Below, in pieces: positions 21,370-48,029 of a stretch of 64,000 nt of DNA. This stretch comes from Peribolospora baueri (Eukaryota). Under the pieces are notes generated by a model. It made no database searches. It was given only the letters and a program-made list of their open reading frames with translations, and was not told where the DNA came from. Position 1 is the stretch's first letter; every line of letters starts with the position of its first letter. The stretch spans positions 1 through 64,000 of the forward strand of contig JAMDHS010000045.1 of NCBI GenBank assembly GCA_029717555.1, read 5' to 3'. The position numbers were made by a program, and so were the translations under genes.

Positions 21370-21656
21370 GACAGCTCGACCTTGCGATCGTGAGCCTGCT
21401 TTGAAGACGGTGGTCTGGAGAGAAGTATGCGCGTCACGTGCGCGATCTGAGAGACGCAGCGATGAAGGTGCTGAATTCCTTCACTTCATCCGTTTCAACG
21501 ACGGAGGCGTTCAGTTCGTTCACGACTTCATCCGTTTTGAGCCGGCGGCAGATATGGTCGTGTGAAAGGGCATCTCTGCGCCAAGCTCGAGACGATCACC
21601 TCCATCTGCTTTCCCTCCAGATCCGCCAGCCGTTGTCCGCGTACCATCCCGAAATC

Positions 21657-23148
21657 ATGCGGCTCGATCTGACGCTCTGGGAGGCCGTCGTCCTGCCTCT
21701 ACTTCCTCTTCTTGTTTCCGTTCAGGCGGCGCCCGTGGCCGAGGTCACGCCCCAGCTTCCTTTCTTCGTCCAGCGGGCTCTGGCAAAGGTCCACTTTGAC
21801 GAGATCATCTCCTTCGGGGACAGCTTCAGTGATAATGTGACCATTCGTAGTCGCGTGCTTCAAGTTTCCAGAGCCATGTCATACTTACAAGTACAATTGT
21901 CGACCTCATTCATTCTTTTTCAGGGAAACGGTACTTACCTGCTCACCAATCGGACTTGGCCGTCCAACCCGGCCTACTATGATGGCCGCTTCTCCAACGG
22001 CCCCACCTGGGTGGAGGATCTGCAAAAACTGACGGGAGCTGAGACGCTCGTTGACATGGCCTATGGCGGAGGTGAGGCGCCCGGTGCCTGTAGCACGGAG
22101 GAGAGAGGGACCCTTGCTGATCGTCTTGCCGTCCCTACGCATTCATCGCGCTTTTCATTAGCCACGATCAACAACTCCCTCATTCCTGGATACACGGGAC
22201 CCAACTCGACGATTCTTGTACCCTCCGTCGTCGACCAGGTAGCAATGTTCCTCAACGGCACCAACGTCTTACGTAACGTTACCTCCTATAACGCTACGGT
22301 GAAGACGAATTCTCTGTGCGTCCTCATCGCCGGAGCCAACGATGCTTACTTTGGTGAAGCGACCGCCGAGGTGGATTCGCTCACGGGCAGTCTTGTCAAT
22401 GCAGTAAAGCAGCTGCGCGGACGAGGTGAGCGTGCAGAGGACGGAGGACGCCGAGCAGGGATGCCTCCGCTAACCGCTACCTCCCGTATCCCCTTTCACC
22501 ATCTTGACGTTTTACCTCCGTGCTCTTCGCCAGGCTACAAGCATTTCCTTCTACCCTCCTCCCAACCTGGCTCTGTCCTGCCCTACTACCGTCCTAACTC
22601 TTCGGAAGTACAAGCACAGGCCAAGTTCTCGCGTGTCTTCCATACAAGCTTAATCCGCTCCCTTCGAGCTGCAGGCCTTCCCTTCTCAGCCGCTTCTTCT
22701 TCCTCTTTGACTGAGTCTTTTGCATCGTCCGCGAACAAAGACTTGAAAGCAAACGAGACGGGGAGCGTCCACGTGACCCTCTGGGACGAGCTCGGGGCGT
22801 TCCAGCGCATCATCGACGTCGGCAAGTCCAAGCGCTGGGACGTCCAAGACGCATGCCTCTCCGGAATCTACGGAGACGCGCCAAACGTCACGCTCTGTGA
22901 CGACCCCGATCATTACGTGTTGTGAGTCGTTGTCATCATCGTCGTCATCGTCCTTTGGCTTTGTTTGATAGGTCCAAGACCGCCGTATTCAGTCCACTAG
23001 AATACTAATTTGGTTCTGTTGTCTGTCTCTGGCTCCTTTTCGCTCTGATCTGGCCGTGTCGGAATTATAAAGCTGGGACGCCTTCCACCCGACACGCCAG
23101 ACCCATCGGATGATAGCTCGTGACGCGCTCAGGACATTGTCGTCTTAG
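21657..23148 (+). CDS. Secreted GDSL/SGNH hydrolase (CE16-like esterase/lipase)
   Basis: Signal peptide. Block I FGDSFSDNG, GRFSNGPTWVE, block II YGGAT, block III GANDA, block V WDAFHPT in the last exon. TAG at 23146-23148. Confidence 0.92.
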
Positions 23149-23913
23149 ACGGATTACGAGGGTGAGGCATCATGAGCTGGTGTCGGGTGTGAGAACGTGA
23201 GAACGCCCGTGTCCCCCCCTCCCGTCTTTTCCTTCGAGCACTTGATGGGCCGGTATCATAGAGTAGAGTAGATAAGGCCAACACAAGTCAACATTTGTGT
23301 TACCCGGCATTAATGCACAACATGGATAAACTCCAAAGCCGAGCCATGGACGCTCAGGCAGCTGGTCAATTTAGGTAGGCAGCGACTCGACGTCTCGCCC
23401 GTATGCGTAGTCTTACCGGACGTCGACCAATGGATGACGAAATGTCTTTTCCGGGTATCACTGTCGTCGTCGTTATAATCGGCAGACGCCCATGACGACA
23501 TGAGACGACTCGAGACGGTTGACGCCGAAACCGAAGTCGACGGAGCCGATTCGCTTTCCAAAGACGTCGATCTCGGCCACTTATTACAACAGGGCCAATG
23601 GCAACACGGGCTCTTCCAGTCGCTGGCTCTTATCGCTCCTTTTGCAGCGCTCTCAGGCCACTGTGAGCGTTGCTGCAGGGAGATAATGACATAAGAGGAC
23701 TGCCCGGAGTGATAAGGCTGCGACATATTGGTGAACCCGTGGTCGGTACCGCTTTTAGGAATTGAGGCGACTCAGATCGGCTCCATTTGTGACGACATCC
23801 CTTCTGTTGGAGGTTGGCGGCGACGAGGGCGGACATGATTATATAGGCAACTGTACTGTTACTGCGGCCGAGTACTGCCGTCTTCCTCTACCCCTGCGGC
23901 TTTCCTTTTCGTA

Positions 23914-24046
23914 TGCTCTCTTCTCTTATGAACCAATAACATCGACTTCCGTCCATCCACCGCTGATTCCTGGGCTCATAACCTGTTGGTACTAGCAGTG
24001 GATGGACGGAAGTCGATGCTATTGGTTTTTATATGAGAAGAGAGCA
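23914..24046. repeat. 133-nt fold-back inverted repeat (pre-miRNA-sized hairpin)
   Basis: 23931-23964 pairs with 23994-24027 at 32 of 34 positions. Outer stem 23914-23925 pairs 12/12 with 24035-24046. Loop is 29 nt. Confidence 0.95.
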
Positions 24047-24166
24047 ATTTGCAAGACTCCCTCTTGCACTTTCTCGCGGAGCTCAACGCTTTGGACTTGC
24101 TGCCCTAGTCCTAGCACAAGCCGCTTGACCCAGATCGCCTCGTTTTGGTAATGTCACTGGTATCAC

Positions 24167-24346
24167 AGGCCACAGAACCCAAAAGAACTTTTCAACCTCC
24201 GCCATGCATCCCTTCGCAATGCCATCCAGCGTATTTTCGGAGCAGCAAAGAAAAAATTCAAGGTTCTCAAGCGAGGCTCGGAGTATCGACCCTCCGAGCG
24301 CGCGGTTACCCACCGAGATACCTGCGCAAGCTGTTCCTCAGCATGA
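24167..24346 (+). mobile_element. Degenerate PIF/Harbinger (IS5-like, DDE_Tnp_4) transposase fragment
   Basis: An ATG-less frame from 24167 reads RPQNPKELFNLRHASLRNAIQRIFGAAKKKFKVLKRGSEY. This matches the Harbinger motif around the third catalytic residue (P.N.KELFNLRH.SLRN.IERIFG.LK.RF.IL). The inverted copy retains IERIFG (GAG at 24704-24702). Confidence 0.85.
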
Positions 24347-24724
24347 ATTATTTGTTGGATATGAGCGTTCACGGGCCGGTGGAACGGTTAGCTCCGATGT
24401 ACGTACAGTGCTTGTGTTCGACTTGATGGTTGTGTTCGATAGAGTAGCAGCAGGAGCGCAGTGGTTCATACAGGTTCTCAGGTCCCCCTATCGAATACAA
24501 CCGTCAAGTCGAACACAATCACTGTACGTACATCGGAGCTAACCGTTCCACCGGCCCGTGAACGCTCATATCCAACAAATAATTCATGCTGAGGAACAGC
24601 TTGCGCAGGTATCTCGGTGGGTAACCGCGCGCTCGGAGGGTCGATACTCCGAGCCTCGCTTGAGAACCTTGAATTTTTTTCTTTGCTGCTCCGAAAATAC
24701 GCTCGATGCCTTGCGGAAGGGATG
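24207..24724. repeat. Long inverted duplication: arms 24207-24442 and 24488-24724, 45-nt spacer
   Basis: By direct comparison 24257-24410 is the exact reverse complement of 24520-24673. The few differences lie near the loop (3 substitutions), in an A-run (1-nt indel) and at the outer ends. Confidence 0.98.
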
Positions 24725-25396
24725 GCAAGGCCGACGTCTGAGTGTTCTGAGTCGTCAGAGTGTTCTGAGTGGGTTGTGAGGGCAAGAAGGTGCCTAGGCT
24801 CTCAGATTGCAAGCGGGGACGCAGCGGCGGAGGTGTAAAGGCGCTGCGGGGTGAGGGAGTAAAGGAATTGGCACATGGATGACCGTCCATACCCCAAAAA
24901 TAAAATGCAAGAGGACGAAGAAATGTCAGAGTGTGAAAAAGGTAGAGATGGGATGGAGGAAGGAGACGATGTGGAGGAACGCGAGTCGCGACGCGTCGAG
25001 CGGATGAGATCAGATCCGCACCAAAACCTGCGTCTTTCTGGAAAAGCCGCACCCCCGGGCTGCGATTTTCTTTTGGCTGGGAGAAAGAAACACGGGTTTT
25101 TGAAAATTCAAATTTTCAAAGTGCAGCCGATGTCGCTGACAGCCCGAACGCAAGCAGAGTTCATCAGAGATGCGCTGGGAGGAATATATACACGAGGGGG
25201 TGCACATATAAGGTCTACTGAGAAGGACGCCGTGGTAGCACGCAGGAGAGGCGGGTATTGTACAGCCGCGCGATCACAAGGAGCGAGGCATGCAGAAAAA
25301 AAGACAAGGGGAGCATGAGGCCACAAACCCTAAGGTGAGTGAGCAAGGATTACAAGCGAACGCGTACGAGAATTTTACAAATCTCTATAGTCCTAT

Positions 25397-28300
25397 TTAG
25401 GCAGCCTTGGCGGCGGCATCGGTCTTTCTGGCATGGTCTTTTCGAGCCGTTGCAGAGCGCGCTCGAGCCAAGGCATCGGCAGCGTGAGGGCCGAAGTCCT
25501 GCTTAGGAGCCGTCGCTGACATCTCTTCGTACTTGAGCAGGTCGTAGAGGCCAGCGATTTGGTCCGCCTGACGAAACATTGGTGCGCATGTCAGCTAACT
25601 TTCTCTATTTTGCTAGAGAAACGACGGCATCGTCGGGATAACGTCTTCCACGTACCTTTTGCTCTAGCTCCTCGATGACCTCGATCAGGTGCTGAGCGAG
25701 GATTCGTCGCTTGGCCGCGTTCATAGCTGGGTCCATGCGCTTGTACTCGTCAGCGAGCTCGATGTAGAGCCTGTCAGGTCGACGCCGCAGGGGGGAAAGC
25801 AAAGCAGCGGTGAGGAAGGGAGAACTGAAACGAAAGCGTGCCAGGGCGAGCAGCGGGGTCCGACTCACATCCTCGAGTGTGCGAAATCGTCTTCAAGCTC
25901 CTGCAGAACCCTTGCCAGCGTCGTCTGGGGTGGGAGGCCCTCTTCAGCGACGCGAGGCACCTCCGCTAGCGGCGTACCCGTCGTACCACCCCGACGGGCG
26001 GCACCTTCCGCGTCAACCCGAGGCCCAGGGTCTTCCTTGGTACGACCATGTCGAGCGGGAGTGTCTCCGACGGAAACGTCGGCCGGCTTCCGCTTCTTGC
26101 GGTGGCAGACCGAGCAGGTCTGCTCGTCGTGGTCCTTGACCCTGACCTTTGCAAACACCTTGGCCATCCGTTCAGACTCTTGCGCCGAAGCCAGGCGGTC
26201 GTCCACCTCTTCCACCGTCGGTCGCCAGCCGCTGCCGTTAGTGGTTTGGCGAGAGCGAGCAGGACGCTGGGCTGCTTGGACGCCCTTGTCGACGCGCCGG
26301 GAGAAGCGTTCCTGTTCAAGCCGTGGCTCTCTGCGTTGCGCGGCGGGGACGTAGGCCGACGATGCTGGTCCGTTCGCCTCGCGTCGTTGCTCCATCTGCT
26401 CCACATAGTGATCAGCAAAAACACGTGCTCTCTCCTGCGCCTTCTCGCGCTCCTGTAAGCTCATCTCGACGGTCAGCTTGAGCTTGTCGATCTCAACGGC
26501 CAGCCTTGCGACCTCCGTTCGCAGCCGTACCACTTCCTTCACTCGAAACTGCTCCGCCTCCATTTCGCGGGCCTCGCGCACGTCCGCGCGTCGACGCACA
26601 TCCTCCTCGTCGACGTTGACGGCCGCACGTCGTCTTTCTCGTTCGACCTGGCGACGGCAAGCGTCTAGCTCTTCTTCGAGCTCGACAATCCTTGCGTTCG
26701 ACGCCACCGTTTCGCGCTCGAGAGATAAGAGTCGCATCTTCAGCTCGCTGAGAGCCGCGATCCCTCCTTGATGCACACCCTCGGCATTGATTTCAGCTGC
26801 CGCGCGCTGCCTCTCCCGTTCGACTTGATGACGACACGCGTCCAACTCCTCTTCAAGTTCGACGATCCGCTCGTTAGAGACCAGCGTCTCCCGCTCGAGA
26901 GCTCCGAGACGCATTTTCAGTTCGCTAAGTGCAGCGGGGTAATCTGCTCGTGGTAAGGAACGCCAGGGAATTTGCCGTCAGTCGCCGGACCACACCACGC
27001 TCATTTGGGCTCAGCTTGAGCCCTGGTCTCTTCTGGGAGAAATCTGATGGCCACTCACCCTCGTCATCCCGACGCCCCTTGTCCGCGAGGTGCACCCTCC
27101 AGTGGTGCACACCATCCCTCATCCTATCTGGGGAGTCGAGCGCCGAAGACACGCCCGTCACATCAGGCAATACAAGGCCCCCGTCGTTCTTCTGGTGATG
27201 CGTGCCGTCCGCTGCAGCTACTCGAACTGCTTTCGCAGATTTGGTGCGTTCGAAATTCAACCCTTTTCCCGTGCCCATAGTGTTCGATGCCGCCTTTCCA
27301 TTTCCACCGGCAAGGCGGTTAAGCAAGTCTGCGAGCGGCGCCCGTTTGAGTTTATCCCTGTCCTCGGCGGGAGAGTATCCGGCAAGGCGGGCGTCCGTCA
27401 CGTAGTCGTTCTCGTCGGCCACCTTGGTCCTTCCGGAGCTGGGGACCGAGACCGGCGTAGAGCCGGTCTCTGCGGAGCCGCCGGAGACGTTTCGTCGGAC
27501 TGATTCCAGCCGAGTTCGTTCGTCTCTGATCTGCGTGCGAAGGTCTGCGGCCATGGAGCCAAACCCGCTGCCGACCCATGATGAACTGTGGGCGAGATGG
27601 TGATGTTGATGAGCAGCATGGAGCTGGCGATGGTCGTCCACCATGGACGGGGGCCTAGCGGATCTCACACGGGCGCCACCCGACAGGGATGGCGCAGGGG
27701 AGGGCGACTCGGGAGACAGGACCGCGTTACTCGGCGCGCGGACGTGCGGCAGAGGACGTGAAGAGGCTTGTGAGCGGTGTCGGTCGCCACGAACACTGTG
27801 CCCGTCGGCGGCGTGTCGAGAAGGGATTTGCATGCCCTGTGCGCTATGAGGGCGCGGAGGAGACAGCATGGCAGTGCCGCGCCTATGCCCGTCACTGTCC
27901 ATACGAACGACACGGTCGCCGGCGGTACGGGCAAAGCGCGAACGCACCCAACCGCCGTCCTCCGTCAAGTACCCATCATCCTCCGCTCCGATATGACCGT
28001 CCGCGTCGTGAGAGTACCTACTATCCCTCCCCGTCCCTTTACGATCCCCACCTCGCGCGTCAGGCCTCACCACTTCGTCCGTTCCCACCGTCATGGCAGA
28101 GAGGTCGATAGCGTCAAGAGTGCGCGTCCCGATGCTAACGTGGGAGCGATTGGCGCGAGAAGGTCGGATTGGGGACGTGAGAATGTTTCTTCCTTCTTCC
28201 CTCCGTGTCGTCCTTCTGGCGCCACCACCGCCCAGAGGGGTATCGGCCAGAGCGCGATGGTTGCCAGTGGAAGAGGCGAGCGACCCGCCGTATCCAATAA

Positions 28301-28544
28301 AGTCCGAGTCAAGCTCAGACCCATCATCGCCTGCGGAGAGTCCGTAGCCATGGTGGTGTTCGTAGTCGGCACGCGGGGTCCGTCGCGCTGGAGATCTACG
28401 ACGACCATCTTTGGCGTAGGACGGTGTGCTGGATAGAGGCGCCGACGCTTTGCCGGCGGGGGTGGGCATCGAGGCGTACGTGACGTCGAATGAAAGGTCG
28501 AGGGGAGCCGCGGCGCCGCCAGCGTAAGCGTCGCCGAAAGGCAT
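25397..28544 (-). CDS. Cep57/translokin-like spindle-pole-body coiled-coil protein with C-terminal microtubule-binding domain
   Basis: Disordered N-terminal half, LVLPDVTGVSS motif and coiled coils. Cep57_MT_bd-like PPQTTLARVLQELEDDFAH...YIELADEYKRMDP...KRRILAQHL...LEQKADQIAGLYDLL. Start ATG uncertain. Confidence 0.85.
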
Positions 28545-28803
28545 GGCGGTTGGAGTCGGTATGTACAGACGGTTGGCCGGTCCGAGACTTGCAGCAGAGC
28601 GTTGACGGGTGATGAAGGTCTCACGCGCCCCGTCGCGGTGTCGATTCACGGTCACGTGATACATTGCCCCATCGGCGGTGTGCTGCGGCCCCGATCACGG
28701 CCGGGGGGATATCGCCACGTCGAACTGGCGAGAGGCAGGATGATGTCGACGACCAACGCCATTCCCTCCCATCGCCATCACATAGATTCATTTTCTTCAA
28801 CCC

Positions 28804-44347: not shown

Positions 44348-47300
44348 AAACCTCACCTCTAAGCCAGTCTTGGGACCCTTGCTCGCCCGCAAATACCGCA
44401 AGGCGAGCTGAGCAGGTCTACTGTGCTGAGCGGGTCCGAGAAGAGAAAAGTCGAGAACGGTGGGCACACCGTTCTGGACGCTATGGTGAACGACCAGCGC
44501 GTTCTCGAGCACCATGTCAAACGAGCTCGCGCCTAGGTTCTTGAGTGCGCAGCCAAAGAGGCTTCGAAGAGAGTCATACTCCTCTGACCGTACGGGACGG
44601 GCGGGTAAATTGGACATGCTCCGTCAGCTTCACGTCAAACCAGACAGCACGGCACTCATCACTGACCTTTGACCTTGGCAGCAGTGCAATCATCCGTGGC
44701 CGTGCGACGCGCCGCCTTGATAGCATCCAAGGCCGCCCTTTTACGCTCCTCGATCTCAGCGAGCTGTGCGCGCAGGCGTTCCAAGCTCTCTTCAAGCTCA
44801 GTGTTCTTTCTTCGGTACTCCTCCACCTCTCGCCTATCATGAACGTCGTCAACGAGGAAGGTCAGTCAGTCAGTGGTCGTTGCACGATAGACGGGCTCAA
44901 GGACCGTAAAGGAATAAATAGCCCCACCCCTGCTCCTCAATGCCCGCTATGAGCTCGGAGAGCTCTTCGGGGTCTGCGTTCGCAATCTCGGCCTGTCGCT
45001 TCCTCTCGAGCTGCAGCTCTCGCACAAGCGCTTCGTGCCTCTCCCTGATGGCTGGCATGGACGAGGTGAGGCCATCGCCGGTGTTGTCGAGAACGTTTTT
45101 GTCCTGGGAGACGAGAAGAAGCCAGAAGGACGCGGGTTTAGGGCATCGAAAGGAGAATGCAAGCGGGAAGAGCGGGTTGAGGTGTCCACCTCACCTGACG
45201 GAGCAGGTCGAGATTGCCTTCGAGCCTCTCTCGCGCTTCTCGATAATGTTGGGCTCGCCAACTGCGACGACGAAGCGACAGACAAAACATTTAGCTCGTG
45301 CTTGCCACCGGCACATGTCATCGTGAAAGGGACCCACTTTCGCCAAGACCACAGGGACTCGGCCTTACATGCCTGCTTGTGCTGGCGGAACATGGCCTAG
45401 AAATACACGGATCAGGAAGGCATCGTGAGCGAGCGGGAGGCAGTCTCCGGGCCGAGTTGAAGGAGAGAAAGGAGTTCGGGGAGGAGGAGGCATGTCACTC
45501 ACCACCATGTCCAACCTCTCTGGATGGCTCATATCGAGGAACTCTCGCAAATAGAACGGTTGCTCGGCCGCAAAGGTGGCCTCCATCTGTTGCTGATACT
45601 CGCGTCCCTCTTGGATGTAATCTTCCAACTGACGCGTCGTCTGCATGAACAAGGATGGAGCAATCAATGTACCATCAGCTCGTACTGAGGCGAGGCGAGA
45701 CGAGACGTAGCAATGCTCCCAACTCACATTCTGCAAAAGGTCAAGCAACGGCATGGAAGCTGCCGCAGACTGCACATACCGAGCGAGGCTCGGAGCTGAT
45801 TGCTGGCCTTGCTCCGACTTGGACCGAGCATCCTTGTTGACGGCACTGCTGGGGCGCCCTCGACGGGGAGTGATAACGGTGAGCCCGTCCATGAAGGATA
45901 GCCCGACCATGTGCAGGAAATCGTCCATCCCGACCGTAGACATGCCGGCCGAGGTGTCCTGAGAAGCGTTCGTCCCGGTCAGCGTCAAGGCTATTGACAG
46001 CCATCTGCGGTGGCGCGGAAGAGAAAGACGAGGGATCGCTCACCGAATCCGCGGCTTGACCGGTTCCGTCAGAAGAAATCTGCCTAGTGGGCGTCCTCGT
46101 GATCGCGCTCCAAAGACCCGTGGTCGAAGGCCGCGAACGCAGTGGTTGGGGAGATCGAGCGAAGAGAGGGGCGGCAAGCGCGCTCAGCGTCTTGGTCGGA
46201 GAGGGAGATGTCGGCAGACCAACTTTGGCGGCCGAGCTGGGCGTTCGGACTCTGTGTCTGACCGGCGAAGTGGGCGTGGTCGCCGAGTCGGTGCGCCTTG
46301 TCCTCGGCGATTTCGGCACGTCGCCACCGGCAGAAGCGAACAACTTGGAAGGTGTGAAGCGCTCCACAGCCCTGAATGTGGGCGGCGGCACTCGGGATGG
46401 CGTATTGGACACGGACAACCTGCCAGGTGGTTTGGAGGGCGACATGGTCCGCCGGAAAGGGGACTTGAGAGGGGAAGCACGGAAAGACGAGCGGGAAGGC
46501 GTCGGCGGCTTGGCCCTTTCCGGGCTGCTGAAGAATGGGTCGGGGATAGGGACGGACGTGGCCGCCTTTGAGGGACTCGCTGCCTTTGAGGGACTTGTAT
46601 ACCTCGAGTCGTGGAGGCGGGATATGGAAGAACGGGGCATCGATGGTTGAGAGGTGGAAGCCGACCGAACCTCCGCCTCATCCTCGTCCTCTTCCTCGTC
46701 CACATCGCTCAGCTCAGTTGGGGCCATAGACTCGCGGCGCAGACCGCCCACGGTCGTGACGAAAGACATGTTCATGTCCTCCTCCTCGTCATCGTCACCC
46801 AGCTCGGTTGGAGCCATGGACTCGCGCCGGAGGCCGCCGACGACGGTAGCGAAAGACATGTTCACGTCATCGTCCTCGTTCTCTTCCTCCTCTTCCTCCT
46901 CCAAAATGGTCGGCGCCATGGACTCGCGCCGGAGGCCACCGACGACAGTCGTGAAGGACATGTTCGTGTCCTCCTCTTCGTCACCGCCAGCTGTACCGGT
47001 GCTGAGGCGGGAACTGTAAACGGAGGAGCGCCGTCGGATTCTGCCTACGGGGCTCGTTAGCTGCATGTCTACCATACTTTCGTCTGCGTCTGAAGAGGGA
47101 GAGTCGTCGCGGTCACTGGTCCGGAATTCAAAGGTGAAGGTGGTGCACCACCATGATCAACTTGCGATCGACGCTAATCATCAAGAATGGATCGCCTTCG
47201 CCGCCGCGCGCGTACTCACAGAATCCGACCTAGCGGAACGGTGGAGTCCATCATTCTTGTTTCGTCCATCATCCCCGACTCGTCCTCCTCTCCCTCCTTC

Positions 47301-48029
47301 TCCTCCTCCTTCTCCTCCTCCTCCTCCTCCTCCTCCTCTTCATCCTCCTCCTCCTCCTCTTCATCCTCATCCAGATCCATGCTCTCCTCGCTGTCCGTCG
47401 ACTCAGCAGCAGAGGAGAGGAAGGGTGCGGCTGGAAGCACCTTTTGGGTCTCGTCATCTGGGTCATATGACCTGAGAACGTAATGTCGTAAGTGAAAAGG
47501 GGAACGGACCTAGAAGCATAAGCACACCACCGGTGGGAGGGAAAAGCTAAAAAGGACAAATGGCTTCTATGGGGAGAAGGAAGGAGTGCGGGAGCAACAC
47601 ACCAAACTCACGTAACAGCGTCCGTCTCGCTAAACGTGACTCTCCTCATCAACCGCTTCTTTTTCGCCCTCCCATTCTCCGCGTCCTCATTGTCCCTGCT
47701 CGAGAATGCCCAAACGCCACTGTGGCGGGTCTCCTCTTCGTTCGGCTGTTGGAGGCTGATGTCGCCATGGTAAGTGTGACGGTCGGTGTGCTGGGTGGGG
47801 ATGCTGGCGATACGTAAAGCGCTCTTTCGTGGAACCTGCGTGAAGCAAGGATGGGGTAAGACCAGGACAAGGATAGAAAAAGAAAAAGGCGGAGGAAGTG
47901 AACGGAGAACGGACTCGTCAGTTCATCTCTATAGACCGCCTCGTCCCGCCTACGGATATGAAAACGAAGGCCTACCAAAGCCCTCCTCGCCCTTTTCCTA
48001 GGCGTCAAGTCTTCTTCCTCTTCCCTCAT
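43828..48029 (-). CDS. SPC105: Kinetochore scaffold KNL1/Spc105/Spc7
   Basis: SILK-like RKSALR and RVxF motif RRVTF near the N-terminus. MELT-like repeats (MDLD, MDST, MQLT, MSFT). Spc7 domain (MDDFLHMVGLSFMD...LEDYIQEG), coiled coil and RWD-like C-terminus. Ends approximate. Confidence 0.88.
44298..44350. repeat. Poly-A/(AAAG)n microsatellite inside a KNL1 intron
   Basis: An A-run followed by tandem GAAA units. Confidence 0.9.

What the first reader, a model, noticed from the sequence alone, without database searches (positions are those of the whole stretch)
24167..24724. Long hairpin built from a Harbinger transposase fragment: a natural transposon-killer-like locus
Seen: arms of ~236 bp around a 45-nt spacer, with more than 150 bp perfectly complementary. 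The left arm and its flank translate to RPQNPKELFNLRHASLRNAIQRIFGAAKKKFKVL, a frame missing from the ORF track. Established: this is the PIF/Harbinger DDE transposase motif around the catalytic Glu; inverted duplications of transposon coding sequence can yield hairpin RNA that silences the family in trans, as with maize Mu killer. Inference: a fungal equivalent, or a domesticated hairpin-siRNA gene. The repeat covers internal transposase sequence, so these are not ordinary TIRs.
Basis: partly seen in the sequence, partly recalled or inferred. Interest (0 to 1): 0.85.

Follow-up and report, generated by a model that had tools for sequence, protein, structure and literature searches.

The report
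Fold-back repeat in dead Harbinger transposon
A real 540-base hairpin-forming inverted duplication sits inside a broken Harbinger transposon of a basidiomycete fungus, but only its outer third comes from the transposase gene and nothing yet shows that it silences anything.

Summary
Arms 24195-24442 and 24488-24737 flank a 45-nt loop, with 239 of 251 columns identical and a 160-nt perfect core. The RNA fold has z -44. Short-read contigs of four public runs contain the loop path and a double-depth core, so it is not an assembly fold-back. A related organism B also carries it.

The peptide is truly Harbinger/DDE_Tnp_4. However, transposase similarity covers only 24158-24298, about 43 residues out of roughly 400. 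That is the outer 93-104 nt of each arm and 37 nt of the perfect core. The inner ~150 nt of each arm is unrelated sequence with no protein relatives.

The hairpin lies in a 1.3-kb patch of multi-copy repeat DNA between two convergent genes. A paralogue keeps the transposase frame open past 24287, exactly where this copy breaks.

Best reading: a fold-back or template-switch repair scar inside a dead Harbinger copy. A Mu killer-like silencing role is possible but untested, since no RNA run and no host genome were available. Interest is modest.

The parts
24142..24287 (+). Harbinger (PIF/DDE_Tnp_4) transposase relic. It is about 43 codons covering the NLRH...IxRIFG motif, with the catalytic-Glu codon changed to CAG (Gln) at 24227. 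A probable intron tail ending in CAG lies just upstream.
   Evidence: All 9 Harbinger proteins tested by tblastn hit only 24158-24286, with E from 2e-10 to 1e-17. The family HMM scores 72.9 bits over 24164-24298. Pfam DDE_Tnp_4 gives E 3e-4 and 20.8 bits, below the 24.8-bit cut-off. Contigs of other copies diverge at 24141 and at 24287.
24195..24442 (.). Left arm of the inverted duplication
24288..24442 (.). Block X: the inner part of the left arm, which has no Harbinger similarity. It is mirrored at 24488-24642.
   Evidence: The family HMM finds nothing for profile positions 49-119 in any of 6 frames. Pfam finds nothing. No protein relatives were found. Other copies in organism B break at 24291 and at 24352/24353.
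24251..24410 (.). Perfectly paired core (160 nt), pairing with 24520-24679
   Evidence: A single 160-nt contig covers 24251-24410 at 1.4-1.6 times single-copy depth in X1 and X2, as expected for two collapsed arms.
24443..24487 (.). 45-nt loop (spacer)
   Evidence: A 169-nt contig covering 24381-24549 spans the loop with 0 differences in X1 and X2.
24488..24737 (.). Right arm. Its outer part (24643-24737, minus strand) is the inverted copy of the Harbinger relic. It keeps the GAG (Glu) codon, but its frame is broken by three indels.
   Evidence: right arm 5.4 bits, SLPQGIERIFGAAKKK
23830..24141 (.). Multi-copy left flank of the repeat patch. It includes a second, small hairpin at 23914-24046.
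   Evidence: Summed contig depth is 2 to 4.5 times the single-copy level in organism A and up to about 10 times in B. Inverted repeat I3 appears.
24738..25130 (.). Multi-copy right flank, probably the 3' non-coding part of the same dead Harbinger copy
   Evidence: Depth is about 4 times single copy. A 5669-nt paralogous contig carries the relic (up to 24287) and 24738-24877 on the same strand and in the same order. Copies diverge after 25129/25130.

Best explanation
This is a fold-back (inverted) duplication inside a dead, fragmented Harbinger copy. It is a scar of break repair or replication template switching, not a gene. I infer the history as follows. A Harbinger copy lay between two convergent genes and was broken at 24287, inside the transposase exon just after the catalytic-Glu motif. 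The 3' end copied about 200 nt of unrelated repeat DNA (X plus the spacer). It then snapped back on itself at a short quasi-palindrome and copied X and about 93 nt of the transposase exon in reverse. Finally it was joined to the 3' part of the element at 24738. The result is a 248-nt stem with a 45-nt loop, which replaces the C-terminal coding region. The arms have probably since been kept alike, at least in part, by arm-to-arm gene conversion. Any small RNA made from it would be a by-product. If a read-through transcript crosses it in an RNAi-proficient host, Dicer would cut the stem. Most products would then match X and only a minority would match Harbinger.

Shown: the structure, its reality in reads, the extent of transposase similarity, the multi-copy flanks and the break at 24287. 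Inferred: the order of events, the repair mechanism and the gene conversion.
For: The structure is real. Contigs built from reads of X1 and X2 include a 169-nt piece (24381-24549) that runs from the left inner arm through the loop into the right inner arm with 0 differences. They also include a 160-nt core piece at 188.5 and 130.2 depth, against 112-118 and 87-93 for the single-copy flanks.

Organism B differs by about 2% in the flanks (18 letters and 12 gaps in 931 nt; 22 letters and 5 gaps in 1098 nt). It nevertheless holds the right arm (24488-24607), the loop edge (24487) and the arm-to-flank junction (24649-24784).

Transposase similarity stops at 24286-24298 in all 9 tblastn queries and in the family HMM. 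Contigs of other copies diverge at exactly 24287. In one of them the 30 letters that follow read, in the relic's frame, as ten codons without a stop, with Q-T-Q where the family consensus has E-T-Q. So this locus lost the C-terminus and gained foreign DNA at that point.

A paralogous contig has the relic and 24738-24877 in the same order and strand. Differences between the arms are confined to the two ends, 8 in the outer 56 nt and 3 in the inner 32 nt. A clean run that long arose in 13 of 200000 random placements.

Insertions of two inverted copies from one locus, and fold-back priming at microhomology, are documented products of break repair in yeast (PMC11724301, abstract read). Spaced fold-back duplications are documented in humans (PMC3907307, search listing only).

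There is no ORF, Pfam domain, Rfam family or tRNA in the stem or patch apart from the relic.
Against: The pre-duplication state was not seen, so the microhomology at the fold-back point and the source of X are inferred. Uneven arm identity (160 nt perfect against 88% outside) is not what a single copying event predicts. It needs either gene conversion, error-prone synthesis near the junctions, or a second event. Persistence of a near-perfect palindrome in two organisms could instead reflect selection for a double-stranded RNA. The 'between' length in the paralogous contig is given as not known, so the claim that 24738-25130 is the 3' end of the same element is not proven. No terminal inverted repeats or target-site duplication were found for the patch.
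Confidence: 0.6

Rival explanations
1. It is a natural trans-silencer of the Mu killer type. [quoted passage not shown] Dicer makes siRNAs from the stem. Those from the 93-nt transposase part silence intact Harbinger copies, and those from X silence a second repeat family.
For: There is an inverted duplication of internal transposase sequence with a short loop. At least one other Harbinger copy in the same genome keeps its frame open past the break, and the relic stretch 24164-24260 has about 3.5 times single-copy depth at 80% likeness or more. The hairpin is kept in two related organisms. One paired position, 24395/24535, is C-G in A and A-T in every contig laid there in B. The core is perfect for 160 nt. 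The locus lies between convergent genes about 1.2 kb from each stop. RNAi is known to suppress a Harbinger element in another basidiomycete, C. neoformans HAR1 (PMC6643885, passages read). Inverted TE duplications do trigger silencing in maize (PMC3440606 and 10.1101/2020.01.07.897926, abstracts read).
Against: Only 37 nt of the perfect duplex and 93-104 nt of each arm are Harbinger-derived. Arms of 248 nt compare poorly with the ~4-kb hairpin RNA proposed for Mu killer (PMC3440606, abstract). A and B are only about 2% apart, so conservation says little. Four other A/B differences are listed on one arm only, and 109 rows were not shown. Nucleotide identity to the intact copies, transcription, siRNAs and the presence of Dicer, Argonaute or RdRP in this host are all unknown.
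Confidence: 0.17
2. The stem arose in two steps. Two old Harbinger relics were already inverted relative to each other (about 88% alike, as paralogues are). A later gene conversion or duplication then made the inner 190 nt identical.
For: The outer 56 nt are 88% alike, with independent derived changes in each arm: Glu to Gln on the left, and paired frameshifts on the right. This is similar to the roughly 89% identity of the paralogous contig over 24738-24877, which has 12 letters and 4 gaps in 140 nt. The right outer arm is identical in A and B apart from 3 gaps, so this divergence predates their split.
Against: X is not Harbinger sequence yet is mirrored perfectly, so an inverted duplication of X is still needed. 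No second complete relic with its own flanks is visible.
Confidence: 0.13
3. It is a mobile fold-back or MITE-like non-autonomous element with long terminal inverted repeats.
For: In organism B, pieces of the arms (24261-24357, 24552-24648) reach 3.4 to 5.5 times single-copy depth. Several contigs begin exactly at 24353 behind unrelated DNA, as the end of a mobile unit would. A second small hairpin next door (23914-24046) is clearly multi-copy.
Against: In organism A the core has only the depth of its two arms, at most one extra partial copy is seen, and the loop is single copy. There is no target-site duplication at 24194/24738 and no second copy in the window. The arm ends are internal coding sequence.
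Confidence: 0.06
4. It is an assembly or library fold-back artefact.
For: Palindromes with short spacers are a known artefact class (my own knowledge). The best holders X1 and X2 may be the sample the window was assembled from.
Against: The loop path carries arm-specific letters on both sides. It is found at about 0.6 times single-copy depth in both runs of A, and a loop-edge contig is found in both runs of B. The arms differ from each other at 12 columns, which a chimeric read would not give.
Confidence: 0.02

Closest known systems
Maize Mu killer (Muk)
   Same: A partial inverted duplication of a DNA-transposon transposase gene, at a locus apart from the intact element, able in principle to give a hairpin RNA by read-through from a neighbouring gene (PMC3440606, abstract read).
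   Different: Mu killer includes the TIR and a long part of mudrA, and a ~4-kb hairpin RNA is proposed for it. Here each arm is 248 nt, only 93-104 nt of it is transposase-derived, no TIR is included, and about 60% of the stem is unrelated DNA. Transcription, siRNAs and trans-silencing are shown for Muk and untested here. The host is a fungus, not a plant.
Ac/Ds composite insertions made by alternative transposition (maize)
   Same: Inverted duplications of fractured transposon fragments that arise as accidents of the transposon's own activity or of replication, and can be transcribed into dsRNA (10.1101/2020.01.07.897926, abstract read).
   Different: Those involve the termini of two nearby elements and re-replication. 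No element termini are recognisable here, and the event cannot be tied to transposase action.
Fold-back and templated inverted insertions at DNA breaks (yeast); fold-back inverted duplications with spacers (human)
   Same: Two copies of one sequence in inverted orientation around a short spacer, inserted at a break together with DNA copied from elsewhere. These are attributed to microhomology-mediated fold-back priming and template switching (PMC11724301, abstract read; PMC3907307, listing only).
   Different: The yeast local fold-backs are mostly 5-34 bp and the human ones are very large. This one is 248 nt per arm. The mechanism is inferred here from anatomy only.
PIF/Harbinger transposons of fungi, e.g. 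C. neoformans HAR1
   Same: The relic belongs to the same transposase superfamily (DDE_Tnp_4). HAR1 shows that RNAi restrains Harbinger in a basidiomycete (PMC6643885, passages read).
   Different: HAR1 is an intact active element. That paper contains no occurrence of the word 'hairpin' in its main text. Here only about 43 of roughly 400 codons remain.
Fungal hairpin small-RNA loci (milRNA/hpRNA)
   Same: A stem-loop in intergenic DNA next to TE sequence.
   Different: Those hairpins are miRNA-sized. A review of fungal hairpin loci states that whether long hairpin RNAs act naturally still needs exploration (PMC9757828, Introduction passage read). Rfam gives no family at gathering score here.

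Membership tests
PIF/Harbinger transposase (Pfam DDE_Tnp_4, PF13359) | Sequence similarity to the DDE_Tnp_4 domain | tested here: met
   Pfam gives E 3e-4 and 20.8 bits (below the 24.8 cut-off) on profile positions 106-142 of 158. 108 database proteins match at E <= 0.01, best 8e-12 at 67-79% identity, and 104 of the 108 carry PF13359. A family HMM scores 72.9 bits.
PIF/Harbinger transposase (Pfam DDE_Tnp_4, PF13359) | Complete domain with the full catalytic triad in an open frame | tested here: not met
   Only residues ~276-314 of ~400 are present. Nothing lies upstream or downstream in any frame. The Glu codon is CAG on the left arm, and the right arm keeps GAG in a broken frame. That this Glu is the catalytic residue is recalled, not tested.
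Autonomous or non-autonomous Harbinger element | Terminal inverted repeats and a 3-bp TWA target duplication; second Myb-like ORF | tested here: not met
   No TIR is found between the patch ends at 23830 and 25130, the best match being 7-9 nt. There is no Myb/SANT hit in any ORF of the patch.
Mu killer-type hairpin silencer | Inverted duplication of transposon coding sequence | tested here: met
   This applies only to the outer 93-104 nt of each 248-nt arm.
Mu killer-type hairpin silencer | Cognate, potentially active element in the same genome | tested here: inconclusive
   Extra contigs at 80% likeness or more cover the relic (about 3.5 times depth). One runs on in frame past 24287. Whether any copy is intact, and its identity to the arms, could not be read.
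Mu killer-type hairpin silencer | Transcription into hairpin RNA, siRNAs, heritable trans-silencing | not testable with these tools
   No RNA holder was listed and no host genome is held.
Fold-back / MITE-type mobile element | Several full copies with the same ends and target-site duplications | tested here: not met
   In organism A the core is at the depth of two arms and the loop is single copy. No other copy is in the window. There is no duplication at the arm ends. Partial copies in organism B leave some doubt.
Assembly fold-back artefact | Junction absent from independent reads | tested here: not met
   The loop-spanning contig 24381-24549 has 0 differences in X1 and X2. A loop-edge contig is present in X3 and X4.

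The most novel reading that the evidence does not exclude
A conserved, natural long-hairpin siRNA locus in a basidiomycete. It would have been born by accident inside a dead Harbinger copy and kept with a perfect 160-bp duplex by selection or gene conversion. It would silence live Harbinger copies and a second repeat family (X) in trans. That would make it a fungal counterpart of maize Mu killer, and an example of how a genome first 'learns' to recognise a DNA transposon.
Probability: 0.12. Interest if true: 0.65.

Novelty: new member of a known kind. Interest (0 to 1): 0.3.

Why it matters
If it is only a repair scar, it is an ordinary piece of transposon debris. It still gives a tidy natural example, in a fungus, of the 'two inverted copies plus filler DNA' product seen at experimental breaks, and of a palindrome whose arms stay alike. 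If it is transcribed and diced, it would be a natural long-hairpin trigger of transposon silencing in fungi. The fungal hairpin-RNA review I read says the natural use of long hairpins still needs exploration (PMC9757828, passage). My two literature searches on fungal hairpin and transposon terms listed no such locus among the 27 titles shown. Small-RNA sequencing of this one species would tell the two readings apart.

Tried and rejected
1. Whole-genome search of the host: no genome is held. Copy number and intact Harbinger copies could therefore only be glimpsed through read laying.

2. RNA evidence: no RNA holder was listed. This says nothing about expression.

3. Exact 28-nt word of block X in metagenome contigs: 0 matches.

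4. Earlier findings of this scan by place, sequence and words: nothing.

5. Block X as coding sequence:
- Pfam on all long frames of both strands found nothing relevant.
- Frame 2 had no relatives in the 'near' length search.
- Frame 3 against 1.84 billion representatives gave 2 hits (E 1e-5 and 7e-4). Both are translated tandem-repeat junk, so I rejected them.
- The minus-strand frames of X were scanned against Pfam only.

6. X as the degenerate C-terminus of the transposase: rejected. The family HMM finds nothing beyond position 48 in 6 frames.

7. tRNA/SINE origin: no tRNA.

8. Rfam: 8 matches at E <= 1, all on the small neighbouring hairpin 23932-24026. All are miRNA families at 22-43 bits against gathering scores of 70-92. 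I treat these as generic hairpin matches.

9. TIRs for the whole 23830-25130 patch: none.

10. RIP-like AT enrichment: GC is 50-54% in the patch against 58-66% in the genes, a mild dip only. Arm differences are mostly C/G transversions and indels, not C-to-T transitions.

11. Whether organism B's two arms are identical could not be settled. One paired site is changed on both arms and four listed sites on one arm only. In addition, 109 rows and 177 pieces were not shown.

12. The 'opposite strands' joint 24287/24708 in B could not be interpreted with confidence.

Full report
**1. The observation**

The sequence and the repeat finder show an inverted repeat with arms 24251-24442 and 24488-24679. 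These are 192 nt long, 98% complementary and 45 nt apart. They are continued outward by 24207-24256 and 24675-24724 (50 nt, 88%).

A global alignment of 24195-24442 against the reverse complement of 24488-24737 gives 239 identical columns of 251. The longest perfect run is 160 nt, 24251-24410 pairing with 24520-24679.

As RNA the 631-nt stretch folds at -509.9 kcal/mol, against -198.2 +/- 7.1 for 20 shuffles, a z-score of -44. In the whole 64-kb window repeat finder reports only four inverted pairs of 40 nt or more, and three of them are in this patch. blastn of 23800-25100 against the window finds no further copy; all other hits have E >= 0.24.

**2. Is it real DNA?**

No genome is held for the window. 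Four public DNA runs of one study hold the stretch. X1 and X2 (organism A) hold 0.94 of the sampled words, and X3 and X4 (organism B) hold 0.47-0.48.

When their contigs are laid on 23000-25900, organism A gives the following:
- Single-copy flank contigs at depth 118.3 and 112 in X1, and 93.4 and 87.5 in X2.
- A 160-nt contig covering exactly 24251-24410 at 188.5 (X1) and 130.2 (X2). This is what two identical arms collapsing into one give.
- A 169-nt contig covering 24381-24549, with no differences, at 72.9 (X1) and 53.3 (X2). It runs from the left inner arm, with its own letters at 24411, 24427 and 24434, through the loop into the right inner arm.
- In X2, a 134-nt contig covering 24650-24783 that joins the right arm to its flank.

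X1 and X2 may be the sample the window came from, but these contigs are built from reads independently of the assembly.

Organism B differs from A by about 2% in the flanks: 18 letters and 12 gaps over 23000-23930, and 22 letters and 5 gaps over 24803-25900. It still has a 120-nt contig covering 24488-24607 (3 differences), a contig over the loop edge at 24487, and a 135-nt contig covering 24649-24784 (no substitutions, 3 gaps).

An assembly fold-back is therefore close to excluded, and the structure most likely predates the split of A and B.

**3. What the arms are made of**

Pfam places the 64-residue frame on DDE_Tnp_4, positions 106-142 of 158. The score is E 3e-4 and 20.8 bits, under the 24.8-bit cut-off.

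The large protein database gives 108 proteins at E <= 0.01 among 119 candidates. The best has E 8e-12 at 67-79% identity, and 104 of the 108 carry PF13359. Full-length members are about 400 residues long.

tblastn of nine of them against the window hits only 24158-24286, corresponding to residues ~276-314, with E from 2e-10 to 1e-17. Every other hit has E >= 0.035.

I built an HMM from 107 of the hits, covering the motif and the following 110 residues. It scores 72.9 bits on 24164-24298 (profile positions 4-48) and 5.4 bits on the right arm. It scores nothing in any of six frames for positions 49-119.

The Harbinger identification is therefore right, but the relic is only about 43 codons. It fills the outer 93-104 nt of each 248-nt arm and 37 of the 160 perfectly paired bases.

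The inner ~150 nt of each arm (block X, 24288-24442) has no detectable relationship to the transposase. It also has:
- no Pfam hit;
- no relatives for frame 2;
- for frame 3, only two hits, both to translated repeat junk;
- no tRNA;
- no Rfam family.

The left arm has CAG where the family has the conserved Glu codon. The right arm keeps GAG, but its frame is broken by indels. That this Glu is the third catalytic residue is recalled knowledge, not a test made here.

**4. The surroundings**

The hairpin lies in the middle of a ~2.9-kb spacer between two convergent reading frames. These are 21405-22925 on the + strand and 25865-28694 on the - strand. The hairpin is about 1.2 kb from each.

GC is 50-54% in the patch against 58-66% in the genes. 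A Urb2 domain elsewhere in the window has its best matches, at 45-49% identity, in Agaricomycetes. The host is therefore a basidiomycete with no close relative in that search, and the runs hold about 23 million letters of contigs.

Summed contig depth rises to 2 to 4.5 times the single-copy level from about 23830 to 24287 and from 24738 to 25130. The hairpin thus sits in a 1.3-kb patch of multi-copy DNA.

Contigs of other copies leave the window's sequence at sharp points: 24141, 24287, 24291 and 24352/24353 (the last two in B), and 25129/25130.

The break at 24287 is the same place where transposase similarity ends. In X2 a contig continues beyond it for at least 255 letters of unlike sequence. 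Its first 30 letters, read in the relic's frame, give ten codons without a stop. They carry Q-T-Q where the family consensus reads E-Y-S-v-E-T-Q. At least one paralogue therefore keeps the transposase frame where this copy has X.

A 5669-nt paralogous contig carries the relic up to 24287 and, on the same strand, 24738-24877 (12 letters and 4 gaps). The length between the two pieces is not reported. I infer that 24142-24287 and 24738-25130 were once parts of one Harbinger copy. On that reading, 24288-24737 replaced its C-terminal coding part.

No terminal inverted repeats were found for the patch.

**5. How it arose and what it does**

The anatomy is filler DNA, then a spacer, then an inverted copy of the filler and of the adjoining 93 nt, then a rejoin. 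This is the product expected from fold-back priming and template switching at a break. [quoted passage not shown] It has also been described for spaced fold-back duplications in humans (PMC3907307, listing only). Abortive gap repair with filler DNA is, from my own recollection, the classic origin of internally rearranged DNA transposons. My search showed only titles and abstract openings on this.

The arm differences are not spread evenly. There are 8 in the outer 56 nt, none in the next 160 nt, and 3 in the inner 32 nt. Only 13 of 200000 random placements give so long a clean run.

The inner mismatched 32 nt could be a pre-existing quasi-palindrome that primed the fold-back. The outer part needs either a second event, error-prone synthesis, or a gene-conversion tract limited to the core.

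One paired position, 24395/24535, is C-G in A and A-T in every contig laid there in B. Four other differences are listed on one arm only, and 109 rows were not shown. Concerted evolution of the arms is therefore a hint and no more.

**6. The silencer idea**

The structural analogy with Mu killer (PMC3440606, abstract) and with the Ac/Ds composite insertions (10.1101/2020.01.07.897926, abstract) is real. RNAi is known to hold down a Harbinger in another basidiomycete (PMC6643885, passages).

Against it, the Harbinger share of the duplex is small. Nothing could be learned about transcription, small RNAs or the RNAi genes of this host. The two organisms that share the hairpin are too close for conservation to argue for selection.

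I put this reading at about 0.15-0.2 as a whole, and at 0.12 for a truly selected trans-silencer. A review of fungal hairpin loci notes that the natural use of long hairpin RNAs still needs exploration (PMC9757828, Introduction passage). My two searches on fungal hairpin and transposon terms listed no fungal Mu killer-like locus among the 27 titles shown. That is weak evidence that none is in print.

**7. Verdict**

The feature is real and correctly described, and the Harbinger assignment is right. However, 'built from a transposase fragment' overstates it.

The most likely explanation is a repair scar in a dead transposon. It is a new member of a known kind, and interest is about 0.3. It would rise to about 0.65 if small RNAs and a trans effect were shown.

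Noticed in passing
window 23914-24046: A second, small hairpin lies 150 nt upstream of the big one. Its arms are ~49-52 nt at 78-82% with a 29-nt loop. It sits in the bins with the highest summed contig depth: about 4 times single copy in organism A and up to about 10 times in X3. It therefore looks like a multi-copy MITE-like or fold-back unit. Rfam gives only sub-threshold matches to unrelated miRNA families (best 42.9 bits against a gathering score of 80). No clear target-site duplication was seen by eye.
   Followed up: partly
window 24738-24780: There is a short tandem repeat (about 13-nt unit, GAGTGTTCTGAGT-like, two to three copies) directly at the outer end of the right arm, where the palindrome joins the right flank.
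   Followed up: no
window 24819-24957: In organism B (X3, X4) the orthologous contig replaces these 137 nt with 37 other letters. This is a small indel polymorphism in the repeat patch between the two organisms (tables 5 and 5c).
   Followed up: no
window 26593-26936: There is a direct repeat of 167 nt (two copies, 72% identity, spacing 177) inside the long minus-strand frame 25865-26977. That frame reads as a Glu/Arg/Leu-rich, coiled-coil-like protein with no Pfam hit.
   Followed up: no
window 24277-24300: An 8-bp inverted microrepeat (GCTCGGAG ... CTCCGAGC) straddles the 24287 break between the Harbinger relic and block X. It may be the microhomology used in a template switch (seen in the sequence; the blastn self-hit 24276-24299 appears).
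   Followed up: no
window 46660-47390: There is a long run of CTC/CTT-rich trinucleotide-like repeats and three 102-nt tandem units (46686-46979) on the + strand. This would be an acidic low-complexity coding stretch on the minus strand.
   Followed up: no
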